The notes: generated by a model from the sequence alone, not told the origin. A stretch of DNA of 51,807 bases from Escherichia coli (GCF_003334765.1 NZ_QOWT01000029.1), one strand, 5' to 3'. Shown: positions 44,024-47,098, numbered from the stretch's first letter. Program-made: numbers and translations.

Positions 44024-45385
44024 GTGGAAAAAGAAAATATCACCCTCGATCCGCGTTCTTCATTTACTCCATCTTCGTCGGCAGATATTCCCGTGCCACC
44101 AGATGGATTAGTTCAACGCAGTACCCGAATTAAACGCATTCAAACCACCGCCATGTTGTTATTATTTTTTGCGGCGGTAATCAATTATCTCGACCGCAGT
44201 TCGCTGTCGGTAGCAAATTTAACGATTCGTGAAGAATTGGGATTAAGTGCCACCGAAATCGGCGCTTTGCTCTCCGTGTTTTCACTCGCTTACGGGATTG
44301 CGCAACTTCCTTGCGGCCCACTATTGGATCGTAAAGGCCCACGCCTGATGCTGGGACTGGGGATGTTCTTCTGGTCACTGTTCCAGGCCATGTCTGGCAT
44401 GGTGCACAGCTTTACGCAGTTCGTGTTGGTGCGTATCGGTATGGGGATTGGTGAAGCGCCGATGAACCCATGTGGCGTAAAAGTCATTAACGACTGGTTC
44501 AACATCAAAGAGCGCGGACGCCCGATGGGCTTCTTCAACGCAGCTTCTACCATTGGCGTTGCCGTAAGCCCACCGATTCTGGCGGCGATGATGCTGGTGA
44601 TGGGCTGGCGTGGGATGTTTATTACCATTGGTGTGCTGGGGATTTTTCTCGCCATTGGCTGGTATATGCTCTATCGCAACCGCGAGCACGTAGAACTGAC
44701 TGCCGTTGAACAAGCTTATCTCAATGCAGGTAGCGTCAATGCCCGCCGAGATCCGCTCAGTTTTGCCGAATGGCGCAGCCTGTTCCGTAACCGCACAATG
44801 TGGGGAATGATGCTCGGATTCAGTGGCATCAACTACACTGCGTGGCTGTATCTGGCCTGGCTTCCTGGTTACCTGCAAACAGCCTATAACCTGGATTTAA
44901 AAAGCACAGGGTTGATGGCGGCTATCCCTTTCCTGTTTGGGGCTGCCGGGATGCTGGTCAACGGTTACGTTACTGACTGGCTGGTCAAAGGGGGAATGGC
45001 TCCGATTAAAAGCCGTAAGATCTGCATTATTGCCGGGATGTTCTGTTCTGCCGCCTTTACGCTGGTCGTACCGCAAGCGACAACATCCATGACGGCGGTT
45101 CTGCTGATTGGCATGGCACTGTTCTGTATTCACTTTGCCGGAACATCCTGCTGGGGCTTGATCCACGTCGCAGTTGCTTCTCGCATGACGGCGTCGGTGG
45201 GCAGTATCCAGAACTTTGCCAGCTTCATCTGCGCCTCTTTTGCGCCGATCATTACTGGTTTTATTGTTGATACCACCCACTCATTCCGTCTGGCACTAAT
45301 CATCTGCGGTTGCGTCACCGCAGCGGGAGCACTGGCGTACATCTTCCTGGTTCGTCAGCCGATCAACGACCCGCGTAAAGATTAA
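44024..45385 (+). CDS. lgoT: MFS transporter LgoT (YjjL), L-galactonate uptake
   Basis: 453-aa ORF, 12-TM major facilitator profile. Confidence 0.88.
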   Translation: MEKENITLDPRSSFTPSSSADIPVPPDGLVQRSTRIKRIQTTAMLLLFFAAVINYLDRSSLSVANLTIREELGLSATEIGALLSVFSLAYGIAQLPCGPLLDRKGPRLMLGLGMFFWSLFQAMSGMVHSFTQFVLVRIGMGIGEAPMNPCGVKVINDWFNIKERGRPMGFFNAASTIGVAVSPPILAAMMLVMGWRGMFITIGVLGIFLAIGWYMLYRNREHVELTAVEQAYLNAGSVNARRDPLSFAEWRSLFRNRTMWGMMLGFSGINYTAWLYLAWLPGYLQTAYNLDLKSTGLMAAIPFLFGAAGMLVNGYVTDWLVKGGMAPIKSRKICIIAGMFCSAAFTLVVPQATTSMTAVLLIGMALFCIHFAGTSCWGLIHVAVASRMTASVGSIQNFASFICASFAPIITGFIVDTTHSFRLALIICGCVTAAGALAYIFLVRQPINDPRKD

Positions 45386-45392
45386 ACTCCCT

Positions 45393-45428
45393 ATGCCCGA
45401 TAACATTTTGCTTATCGGGCATTTTTAT
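45393..45428. terminator. Rho-independent terminator between convergent lgoT and tsr
   Basis: Stem ATGCCCGATAA/TTATCGGGCAT followed by TTTTTA on the plus strand. Confidence 0.7.
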
Positions 45429-45433
45429 GGCGA

Positions 45434-47098
45434 TTAAAACGTTTCCCAGTTCTCCCCGCTATCTGCCACTGCCATTTTACGCGGCGTAGCTGGCGTCACG
45501 TTTTTTACCACAGCCGATGTTTCACGCTGCTGTTGCTGCTGTTGCTGAATCCGGAACACTGCCACAGCTTCGGTCAGGCGACTGGCCTGCTCTTCCAGCG
45601 CGGCGGCGGCAGCGGCAGATTCTTCCACCAGCGCAGCGTTCTGTTGAGTTACCCGGTCCATCTCAGCAACCGCTAAGCCAACCTGATCGATACCACGGCT
45701 CTGCTCATCAGAAGCAGAAGCAATTTCGCCCATAATGTCCGTCACGCGGGTCACGGCACTGACAATCTCCGCCATTGTTTCCCCTGCGCTTTCGACCAGC
45801 GTAGAGCCAACATCTACTTTCCCCACCGAGTCTTCAATCAGGCTTTTAATTTCACGAGCCGCCTGAGCGCTGCGCTGAGCCAGATTACGCACTTCACCCG
45901 CGACCACCGCAAAACCGCGCCCTTGCTCACCCGCGCGCGCTGCTTCAACCGCCGCGTTCAAAGCCAGAATATTGGTCTGGAAGGCAATGCCGTCAATTAC
46001 GCTGATAATATCGGCGATTTTCTGCGAACTGGTGGAGATATCGCGCATGGTCTGTACTACGTTATCCACCACTTTGCCGCCGCGTTGCGCCGTTTCAGAA
46101 GCACTTAACGCCAGATGGCTGGCCTGACGCGCATTCTCGGCGTTCTGTTTCACCGTTGCGGTCAGTTGCTCCATGCTGGCTGCCGTCTCTTCCAGCGAAG
46201 CGGCCTGTTGCTCGGTGCGCGAAGAGAGATCGTTATTGCCGGTGGCGATTTCGCTGGCACCGCTATAGATGGCATTGGCCCCGTTGCGCACATCACCGAC
46301 GGTACGCATCAGCTCTCCCTGCATATGGCGCAAACTCTCTGCCAGTTGCCCCATCTCATTAGAGCCATCCACCTCAATCGGTTTCACCAGATCGCCGCCT
46401 GCAATATGACGAATGCTGTCAATCAGGCGATTCATTGGCGCTACCAGCGAGGCTTTAATACCGAACCAGACGGCGAAGATGACCGCCAGTACGACGATCA
46501 TCACGCCCACCAGAATCCACATCGCCTGGCTGTAGGAGGCATTGTTATCGCTGACGGCGATATCATAGAGCCGATCGTCTTGCTCCATGTAAGCCACATA
46601 CTGCTTCTCGAAACCGTCCTGATATCCCTGGGTCGGCTGATCAAAGAACTCGTTGATTTTGCCTGCACCTAATAGTTGGATCAGCTCCGCCAGCGCATTG
46701 TGATAAATATCGTAATTACGTTTGATCTCTGCCGCTGCGGCGGTGCTCTGACGCGGGTCACGCGGCAACGCTTCGTAATCCGCCCAGTTTTTTTCCGCCT
46801 GTTTCAGCGAAATACTGGCACTCTGCATCAGCTCAGCAACGGTTGAACCGCTACCAATATTATTCTGATCCATCATGTAGCGGATACCCGCGCGGTTGAG
46901 GGTGTTACGCGTCTGCAACAACGCGACCCAGCTGCCATTCAGCGTGGATTGCTGCTGGCGAATGGTTTGTAAAACAGTGAAATTTTCTTTGTCATTCTTT
47001 AAGGCATTAAAGAACAGACCGCCTGATGTCAGTTGTAAAAGGCCAAAAACGGCCAAAACCAGCAGTAAGCTGGTCACAATTTTGATACGTTTTAACAT
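45434..47098 (-). CDS. tsr: Methyl-accepting chemotaxis protein I (serine chemoreceptor) Tsr
   Basis: 554-aa ORF with two TM segments, HAMP, methyl-accepting signalling domain and C-terminal NWETF pentapeptide; contains a 7-glutamine tract. Confidence 0.95.

What the first reader, a model, noticed from the sequence alone, without database searches (positions are those of the whole stretch)
45526..45546. Expanded 7-glutamine tract (CAG/CAA repeat) in the Tsr C-terminal linker
Just before the C-terminal tail (…[16 protein letters not shown]…NWETF) Tsr has seven consecutive Gln encoded by CAG CAA CAG CAG CAA CAG CAG. I recall a shorter Q-run in K-12 Tsr (551 aa against 554 here). The tract lies in the flexible tether that presents the NWETF pentapeptide to CheR/CheB, so repeat slippage could tune adaptation-enzyme recruitment.
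Basis: partly seen in the sequence, partly recalled or inferred. Interest (0 to 1): 0.3.

Follow-up and report, generated by a model that had tools for sequence, protein, structure and literature searches.

The report
Common glutamine-repeat allele of Tsr
The seven-glutamine run near the end of the E. coli serine chemoreceptor Tsr is real, but it is the normal form found in about three quarters of E. coli genomes; the laboratory strain K-12 is the unusual one, having lost one 9-base repeat unit.

Summary
The tract is real: seven Gln codons (CAG CAA CAG CAG CAA CAG CAG) at window 45527-45547, minus strand, residues 518-524 of an intact 554-aa Tsr. The reported coordinates are one base off.

"Expanded" is the wrong polarity. 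Among 5,383 complete E. coli genomes with this part of tsr, about 4,057 (75%) have the seven-codon length, about 1,211 (22%, including K-12, BL21 and MC4100) have Q4, 74 have Q10, and 40 have an interrupted seven-residue form, QQEQQRQ. I detected no single-codon length variants.

The variable unit is 9 bp (CAGCAACAG): one, two or three copies plus CAG. Orthologues in other Enterobacteriaceae carry QQEQQR-x at the same seven positions, and their tether length is 32 residues in 36 of 55 species, the same as here. K-12 has 29 and Q10 has 35. So the seven-residue length is ancestral, the all-Gln purity is specific to Escherichia, and Q4 and Q10 are derived. Unit loss and gain arose repeatedly (6-8 changes on a 17-allele tsr tree).

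A functional effect is untested. Published Tar data suggest about 0.4-0.7 nm of CheR reach per three-residue step. This is an ordinary, already catalogued allele.

The parts
45434..47098 (-). tsr coding sequence (554 codons plus stop), the serine chemoreceptor / methyl-accepting chemotaxis protein I
   Evidence: ORF list. 100% identical over the last 300 nt to genes annotated tsr in RefSeq E. coli genomes. About 98.5% nt identity to K-12 tsr over the first 1,550 nt. lgoT and lgoR lie next to it, as in K-12.
45527..45547 (-). Seven-Gln tract, residues Q518-Q524: CAG CAA CAG CAG CAA CAG CAG
   Evidence: Sequence and translation.
45539..45547 (-). First copy of the 9-bp unit CAGCAACAG (QQQ). The register is arbitrary: it can equally be read as CAG + 2 x CAACAGCAG.
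   Evidence: TRF period 9, 2.4 copies, 100% matches. Alignment of Q4, Q7 and Q10 alleles shows indels of exactly one unit.
45530..45538 (-). Second copy of the 9-bp unit CAGCAACAG. This is the unit absent from K-12-type Q4 alleles; Q10 alleles have three copies.
45527..45529 (-). Partial third copy (CAG) closing the tract before CGT (R525)
45452..45550 (-). C-terminal tether, I517-E549 (33 residues counted from I517; 32 between FRI and the pentapeptide)
   Evidence: The boundary at I517 is taken from PMC10561060. The deposited Tsr array model 8C5V ends at R516 and the 1QU7 construct ends at about Q520. Conservation drops after I517 in 34 orthologues.
45437..45451 (-). [quoted passage not shown]
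   Evidence: Translation. Its role is as described in PMC7390727 and PMC10561060. W, E and F are invariant in orthologues.

Best explanation
This is the ordinary, majority allele of E. coli tsr. SHOWN: the seven Gln form a perfect 9-bp tandem repeat (two copies plus CAG). E. coli carries four allele classes at this site: two copies (Q7, about 75%), one copy (Q4, about 22%, including K-12), three copies (Q10, about 1.4%) and an interrupted seven-residue form QQEQQRQ (0.7%). INFERRED (polarity): a seven-residue Gln-rich segment, QQ-x-QQ-R-x, is the ancestral state in Enterobacteriaceae. Substitutions in the Escherichia lineage (GAG to CAG, CGC to CAG) turned an imperfect 9-bp periodicity (CAGCAAGAG / CAGCAACGC) into a perfect repeat. 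After that, replication slippage or unequal recombination removed or added one unit several independent times. K-12's Q4 is therefore a contraction; the window's Q7 is not an expansion. INFERRED (function): the tract supplies the first seven residues of the roughly 32-residue flexible tether that holds NWETF, and so CheR and CheB, near the methylation sites. It gives the tether length typical of the family. One unit more or less changes tether length by about 10%. By extrapolation from Tar, this shifts the most probable position of tethered CheR by about 0.4-0.7 nm, which is probably a small and nearly neutral quantitative effect.
For: Allele counts. 5,383 of 5,426 genomes carry the tsr 3' end. 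Q7-length: 4,052 by megablast and 4,057 by gapped blastn, made up of 3,350 exact plus 707 with 1-2 mismatches in 50 nt. Q4: 1,208, or 1,137 exact plus 74 with a mismatch. Q10: 74, or 61 exact plus 13. QQEQQRQ: 40. The classes sum to about 5,382. No genome falls in the identity band expected for +/-1 codon. Unit structure: indels are exactly one 9-bp unit and TRF reports period 9. Polarity: orthologues read QQEQQR-A/Q-R in Salmonella, Citrobacter and others. E. coli LR-58-1 and TW10598 have CAG CAA GAG CAG CAA CGC CAG at the same seven codons in a 554-aa protein, and they branch as sister to all pure-Gln alleles when the tree is rooted with Escherichia sp. E1V33. E. whittamii also has two CAACAGCAG units. 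The tether is 32 residues in 36 of 55 orthologues (range 29-34); Q7 gives 32, Q4 gives 29, Q10 gives 35. Most full-length orthologues are 554 aa. Recurrence: Fitch parsimony needs 7 tract changes on a 17-allele tsr tree, 6-8 in 200 bootstraps. The O104:H21 Q10 allele matches the window's Q7 allele at all 21 variable sites near the tract. Function: the tether and pentapeptide roles, and the linear dependence of tethered-CheR position on tether length (0.128 +/- 0.048 or 0.233 +/- 0.100 nm per residue in Tar with 22-46-residue tethers), come from PMC10561060 and PMC7390727. A Q7 Tsr fragment is already deposited in PDB 3ZX6.
Against: Polarity rests on a single-gene tree in a recombining species and on an outgroup set that lacks E. 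albertii, E. fergusonii and S. enterica proper; the scan did not return them. The QQEQQRQ allele is most divergent in its 3' 400 nt, so it could have been imported rather than being a relic. That would not change the positional homology with other genera. The 707 'Q7-length' genomes with 1-2 mismatches were not inspected one by one, so some could carry a substitution inside the tract. The 17-allele sample was chosen to include non-Q7 alleles from different backgrounds, so 6-8 events is not a rate, and recombination could account for some of the apparent recurrence. The functional estimate is extrapolated from Tar to Tsr and assumes the Gln run is disordered. The low-confidence AF2 model instead continues the last helix through it.
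Confidence: 0.82

Rival explanations
1. One reading: the tract in this genome is an expansion, and slippage-driven length changes serve as an adaptive tuning knob for CheR/CheB recruitment, so that lineages are selected for different tether lengths.
For: Length changes recur on different tsr backgrounds. Tether length measurably shifts tethered-CheR geometry in Tar. All changes are in frame and leave NWETF intact.
Against: Q7 is the majority and ancestral-length state, not an expansion. There are only three length states, with 2.3 repeat copies. Laboratory and clonal sets seen in the sampled rows are uniform: K-12 derivatives are all Q4, the HS assemblies all Q10, the O157:H7 genomes all Q7. 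That indicates a slow mutation process, not a fast switch. The predicted effect per step is small. No phenotype data exist; no paper in the searchable library mentions polyglutamine in Tsr.
Confidence: 0.1
2. The Gln run is not part of the flexible tether. It is a helical continuation of the last cytoplasmic helix, so each 9-bp unit adds about 0.8 helical turn (about 0.45 nm) and moves the tether's anchor point rather than lengthening the disordered chain.
For: In the AF2 model the last helix runs 438-528, through Q518-Q524. The 1QU7 crystallisation construct extends to about Q520. From my own knowledge, polyGln that follows a helix can propagate helicity.
Against: The model has low confidence (mean pLDDT 52.9; 52-68 across the tract), so its helix end is not reliable. 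The array model 8C5V stops at R516, and PMC10561060 treats I517 as the first tether residue. Sequence conservation collapses right after I517 in 34 orthologues, as expected for a linker.
Confidence: 0.15
3. The length difference is a sequencing or assembly artefact in a low-complexity stretch.
For: None specific; repeats are in general prone to such errors.
Against: The same 21-nt tract is found exactly in 3,350 independent complete genomes. The alternatives differ by exact 9-bp units and track strain identity: several independent assemblies of HS, of LF82 and of K-12 agree with each other.
Confidence: 0.01

Closest known systems
E. coli K-12 Tsr (methyl-accepting chemotaxis protein I, 551 aa) with its C-terminal tether and NWETF pentapeptide
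   Same: Same gene at the same locus next to lgoT. About 98.5% nucleotide identity over the first 1,550 nt and 99% protein identity. Same NWETF and same tail sequence apart from three substitutions.
   Different: The window has two copies of the 9-bp CAGCAACAG unit (Q7, 554 aa, 32-residue tether) where K-12 has one (Q4, 551 aa, 29 residues). K-12 is the minority form (about 22%).
Tsr fragment in PDB 3ZX6 (HAMP-Tsr fusion)
   Same: It carries the Q7 tract followed by [30 protein letters not shown], one residue different from the window over the 148 aligned residues. The Q7 allele has therefore already been cloned and deposited.
   Different: It is an engineered fusion. Nothing in that entry's record addresses tract length.
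Engineered tether-length variants of Tar (22, 29, 34 and 46 residues; PMC10561060)
   Same: Same functional element: a disordered tether between the receptor body and NWETF. They show that length changes shift the position of tethered CheR linearly.
   Different: They are engineered in Tar, with changes of 5-12 residues made near the pentapeptide. Here the variation is natural, in Tsr, in steps of 3 residues at the body-proximal end, and untested.
In-frame coding tandem-repeat (VNTR-type) polymorphisms in bacterial genes
   Same: A perfect short tandem repeat; copy-number alleles differing by whole units; recurrent gain and loss on different haplotypes.
   Different: Very low copy number (1.3 to 3.3) and only three length states. 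It does not behave like a hypervariable typing locus or a phase-variable contingency locus.
Tsr orthologues of Salmonella, Citrobacter, Enterobacter and other Enterobacteriaceae
   Same: Same architecture...AVAVFRI, then a seven-residue Gln-rich segment, then about 25 residues, then xWExF. The tether is 32 residues in most, and most proteins are 554 aa.
   Different: Their segment is interrupted (QQEQQRA, QQEQMKA and similar), with at most 2-4 consecutive Gln, so it is not a perfect DNA repeat. No length instability of this kind was seen between those species.

Membership tests
Tsr / pentapeptide-bearing methyl-accepting chemotaxis protein | Orthology to E. coli tsr (sequence identity and conserved genomic position) | tested here: met
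   300-nt 3' end is 100% identical to annotated tsr genes, found in 5,383 of 5,426 genomes. 99% protein identity to K-12 Tsr. lgoT lies downstream as in K-12.
Tsr / pentapeptide-bearing methyl-accepting chemotaxis protein | C-terminal xWxxF pentapeptide (NWETF) at the end of a poorly conserved linker | tested here: met
   The protein ends in NWETF. Conservation collapses after I517 and recovers at the pentapeptide in 34 orthologues.
Tsr / pentapeptide-bearing methyl-accepting chemotaxis protein | Intact reading frame with methylation-site glutamates (E493, E502) and the signalling hairpin | tested here: met
   Single 554-codon ORF. Residues 485-516 are identical to K-12, including VEES and LEEQ. 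Matches the chains of 1QU7, 6S1K and 8C5V.
Tsr / pentapeptide-bearing methyl-accepting chemotaxis protein | The linker is disordered and actually recruits CheR and CheB | not testable with these tools
   Taken from the literature for K-12 Tar and Tsr. The AF2 model is too uncertain to say whether residues 518-524 are helical.
In-frame coding tandem-repeat copy-number polymorphism | Perfect tandem repeat at the DNA level | tested here: met
   TRF: period 9, 2.4 copies, 100% matches, no indels.
In-frame coding tandem-repeat copy-number polymorphism | Alleles differ by whole repeat units | tested here: met
   Q4, Q7 and Q10 differ by exactly 9 bp. No alleles appear in the identity bands expected for +/-1 codon. 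The classes sum to essentially all 5,383 genomes.
In-frame coding tandem-repeat copy-number polymorphism | Recurrent, independent copy-number changes (homoplasy) | tested here: met
   7 changes on a 17-allele tsr tree, 6-8 in bootstraps, against a minimum of 2. Caveat: recombination could mimic some of these events.
Phase-variable contingency locus (simple-sequence-repeat switch) | Repeat changes switch expression on and off, through a unit length that is not a multiple of three or a promoter location | tested here: not met
   The unit is 9 bp and lies inside the coding region. All alleles remain in frame with an intact NWETF.
Phase-variable contingency locus (simple-sequence-repeat switch) | Long tract with high within-lineage variability | tested here: not met
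   Only 1.3 to 3.3 copies. In the sampled rows, several independent genomes of K-12 derivatives (all Q4), HS (all Q10), LF82 (Q10) and O157:H7 (Q7) are uniform within each lineage.

The most novel reading that the evidence does not exclude
The natural tether-length series in E. coli Tsr (29, 32 or 35 residues, set by one, two or three copies of a 9-bp unit) measurably changes serine adaptation kinetics or precision. The recurrent independent gains and losses would then reflect selection in different niches. K-12, the reference for essentially all quantitative chemotaxis work, would carry an atypically short Tsr tether that three quarters of E. coli and nearly all related genera do not have.
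Probability: 0.12. Interest if true: 0.4.

Novelty: already known. Interest (0 to 1): 0.1.

Why it matters
Mostly as a correction. The tract is not an anomaly of this genome but the standard E. coli form, so it needs no special explanation. Two modest points are useful. First, K-12's Tsr tether (29 residues between FRI and NWETF) is the short outlier relative to most E. coli and to orthologues in 55 related species. People who fit tether-geometry models of CheR and CheB action to K-12 data may want to know this. Second, the Q4, Q7, Q10 and QQEQQRQ alleles form a ready-made natural series for testing how tether length, or the helix-tether junction, affects adaptation. The locus is also a small, clean example of substitutions turning an imperfect periodic coding sequence into a perfect repeat that then becomes unstable in length.

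Tried and rejected
1. A short allele-specific megablast query for Q10 returned 'no match'. This was an artefact of the low-complexity filter masking the 30-nt tract, not absence. Repeating it with a 50-nt unmasked flank found 74 genomes.

2. I hypothesised that the roughly 40 unassigned genomes carried the E. whittamii arrangement (QQTQQQQQQ). An allele-specific query found no full-length exact match in E. coli, so this was rejected.

3. I tried to infer the unassigned class from identity bands alone. The bands mix gapped, partial and two-piece alignments, so this misled me towards a possible Q9 allele. Reading one example directly showed it is the interrupted QQEQQRQ allele, and its count of 40 closed the accounting.

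4. AF2 structure prediction on a 34-sequence orthologue alignment gave mean pLDDT 52.9 and pTM 0.29. That is too poor to decide whether the Gln run is helical, so I made no fold searches.

The closest outgroups available were therefore E. whittamii and two cryptic-clade Escherichia.

6. The EPR paper on the Tar linker (PMC3267950) is not held, so the helix-tether boundary is taken second-hand from PMC10561060.

7. A literature search for polyglutamine in Tsr found nothing.

8. Assembly artefact and chance were both considered and rejected.

Full report
OBSERVATION. The finding points to window 45526-45546. The sequence there lies on the minus strand inside a 554-codon ORF, 45434..47098. The C-terminus of that ORF reads ...[47 protein letters not shown]. 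Tandem Repeats Finder sees a perfect 9-bp period with 2.4 copies. Seven Gln in a row is not a chance event: about 6e-6 such runs are expected in the window's ORFs. The gene is tsr. Its last 300 nt are 100% identical to genes annotated tsr in many RefSeq E. coli chromosomes, and 5,383 of 5,426 complete genomes carry this segment. lgoT and lgoR sit beside it as in K-12.

WHAT VARIES. I aligned the 3' end of tsr from K-12 MG1655, O157:H7, O104:H21 and other strains. The length differences fall exactly inside the tract and are whole 9-bp units:
- K-12: ATT CAGCAACAG CAG CGT (Q4, 551 aa).
- The window: two CAGCAACAG units plus CAG (Q7, 554 aa).
- O104:H21, HS and LF82: three units plus CAG (Q10, 557 aa).
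PMC10561060 also prints K-12 Tsr as IQQQQRETS....

ALLELE FREQUENCIES. I used short allele-specific queries whose flanks are too short to seed megablast on another allele, and then gapped blastn with the same queries.
- Q7-length: 4,052 genomes by megablast and 4,057 by gapped search, made up of 3,350 exact plus 707 with one or two mismatches in the 50-nt probe.
- Q4: 1,208 genomes, or 1,137 exact plus 74 with a mismatch. This class includes K-12 derivatives, BL21 and MC4100, and also O18 and BEN2908.
- Q10: 74 genomes, or 61 exact plus 13. This class includes HS, LF82, NRG 857C, O104:H21 and MP1.
- About 40 genomes remained unassigned.
A first Q10 query returned nothing because the low-complexity filter masked it. 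That is a tool artefact. No genome fell in the identity band expected for a one-codon difference, with either the Q7 or the Q4 probe. So the tract changes in three-codon steps, not by single CAG/CAA slippage.

THE FOURTH ALLELE AND THE POLARITY. I first guessed that the remainder carried the E. whittamii arrangement; a specific query rejected this. Reading one member directly (strain LR-58-1) showed a 554-aa Tsr whose seven codons at this position are CAG CAA GAG CAG CAA CGC CAG, that is QQEQQRQ followed by R-E. Exactly 40 genomes carry it, among them O6:H16 strains and TW10598, which closes the accounting (4,057 + about 1,211 + 74 + 40, approximately 5,383). This allele is informative for three reasons:
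- It has the same length as Q7.
- It already shows an imperfect 9-bp periodicity (CAGCAAGAG / CAGCAACGC).
- It resembles the segment in other genera.
A scan of one genome per species for AVAVFRIQQ returned 55 Enterobacteriaceae orthologue tails. After FRI they read QQEQQRA-R in Salmonella and Citrobacter, and QQEQMKA-R or similar in Enterobacter and others. Cryptic-clade Escherichia have QQTQQRQ or QQAQQRQ. E. whittamii has QQT followed by two CAACAGCAG units. Three further observations bear on polarity:
- The number of residues between FRI and the pentapeptide is 32 in 36 of 55 species, range 29-34. The window's Q7 gives 32, K-12's Q4 gives 29 (the short extreme), and Q10 gives 35 (beyond the range).
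- Most full-length orthologues are 554 aa, as here.
- On a tsr tree rooted with Escherichia sp. E1V33, the two QQEQQRQ alleles branch as sister to all pure-Gln alleles.
Together these indicate that the seven-residue length is ancestral. The all-Gln composition arose by substitution, creating a perfect repeat. K-12's Q4 is a derived 9-bp deletion and Q10 a derived duplication. "Expanded" is therefore the wrong description of the window's allele.

RECURRENCE. On a neighbour-joining tree of 17 full-length E. coli tsr alleles (1,623 ungapped columns, 83 variable sites, tract columns removed), the three length states are interspersed. Fitch parsimony needs 7 changes, 6-8 in 200 bootstraps, against a minimum of 2. 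The O104:H21 Q10 allele is identical to the window's Q7 allele at all 21 variable sites in the last ~260 nt. In addition, O18 (Q4), ECONIH2 (Q7) and MP1 (Q10) are each other's nearest relatives. The sample was chosen to include non-Q7 alleles from different backgrounds, so this shows recurrence but is not a rate, and recombination could explain part of it. Within clonal sets seen in the sampled rows the allele is stable: K-12 derivatives are Q4, several HS assemblies are Q10, and O157:H7 genomes are Q7. The locus behaves as a slowly mutating in-frame repeat, not as a contingency switch.

HOW IT MOST LIKELY WORKS.
- Established knowledge: the NWETF pentapeptide of Tar and Tsr binds CheR and phospho-CheB, and it is tethered to the receptor body by an unstructured linker of about 30-35 residues (PMC7390727; PMC10561060).
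- Position of the tract: PMC10561060 counts the K-12 Tsr tether as 30 residues beginning at I517, with R516 as the anchor. The tract is therefore the body-proximal end of the tether. Consistent with this, the deposited array model 8C5V ends at R516 and the 1QU7 construct ends at about Q520. Conservation among 34 orthologues collapses right after I517.
- Effect of length: in Tar, tethers of 22, 29, 34 and 46 residues shift the most probable position of tethered CheR linearly, by 0.128 +/- 0.048 nm per residue, or 0.233 +/- 0.100 under a second model.
- Inference: extrapolated to Tsr, one 9-bp unit changes this position by about 0.4-0.7 nm on roughly 10 nm. I infer that Q7 simply provides the family-typical tether length, and that one unit more or less has a small quantitative effect at most. 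This step is inferred, not shown.
- Rival: the Gln run may continue the last helix. The AF2 model does extend the helix to residue 528, but its confidence is low (mean pLDDT 52.9; 52-68 over the tract), so this stays open.

COMPARISON WITH WHAT IS KNOWN. The protein is Tsr by every feature I could test. The Q7 form is present in thousands of RefSeq genomes and in PDB 3ZX6, whose Tsr part carries Q7 and differs from the window by one residue over 148. I found no paper discussing this polymorphism. It is nevertheless an ordinary in-frame tandem-repeat copy-number polymorphism in a disordered linker. It does not meet the criteria for a phase-variable contingency locus: the unit is in frame, there are about two copies, and clones are stable.

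VERDICT. K-12 is indeed shorter, the tract is in the tether, and its length varies by repeat-unit change. But the polarity is reversed, the unit is 9 bp, and tuning is untested and predicted to be weak. Novelty: already known. Interest is low. The one point worth keeping is that K-12's Tsr tether is atypically short compared with most E. coli and related genera.

Noticed in passing
window 45595-45604 and 45629-45638 (minus strand); locus L080: tsr of E. coli strain 3PT (mink) has a 33-bp in-frame deletion between two near-identical 10-bp direct repeats, GCYGCGCTGG, both of which are present in the window. It removes 11 residues ([11 protein letters not shown] or an equivalent register), including methylation site E493, and gives a 543-aa Tsr that still carries Q7 and NWETF.
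   Followed up: partly
window 45385-45434 (tsr/lgoT junction); loci L070-L085: The gene immediately downstream of tsr alternates between strains. It is lgoT (MFS transporter) in the window, K-12, O157:H7, HS, Nissle and UMNF18. It is a TRAP-transporter large permease in O18, LF82, MP1, ECONIH2, 3PT and O68:H12. Upstream, hpaR lies about 120 nt from tsr in many strains, but not in the K-12 record; in the window I did not identify the genes upstream of tsr.
   Followed up: no
locus L013 (NZ_JAATUR010000013.1) and L046: A record titled 'Escherichia coli strain SCPM-O-B-8794' has a Tsr tail (QQAQQRQHEALPVVKTVTPVASRK...) like that of Escherichia sp. E1V33 and unlike the tail seen in the E. coli genomes examined. 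It is probably a cryptic-clade Escherichia rather than E. coli proper.
   Followed up: no
Genome-contig scan: The pattern GCNGTNGCNGTNTTYMGNATHCARCAR fits the E. coli tsr sequence, yet the scan returned no typical E. coli representative and no E. albertii, E. fergusonii or S. enterica subsp. enterica. The reason is unknown; their representative genomes may differ at these codons or may lack the gene.
   Followed up: no
window 45600-45618 (minus strand): The Ala6 run (A495-A500, between methylation sites E493 and E502) is encoded by a 6-bp GCGGCA-type repeat with 3.2 copies. Unlike the Gln tract, it is invariant in all 34 orthologues aligned. This fits its position inside the structured methylation helix.
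   Followed up: partly
locus L087/L088 (E. coli LR-58-1): In this strain, one of the 40 with the interrupted QQEQQRQ tsr allele, the neighbouring lgoT is annotated as a pseudogene with an internal stop.
   Followed up: no
loci L088, L089 compared with the window's tsr: The QQEQQRQ alleles differ from other E. coli tsr alleles mainly in the last ~400 nt (12-17 differences per 200 nt, against 3-5 in the 5' part). This mosaic pattern suggests either an old polymorphism confined to the 3' end or a recombination import.
   Followed up: partly
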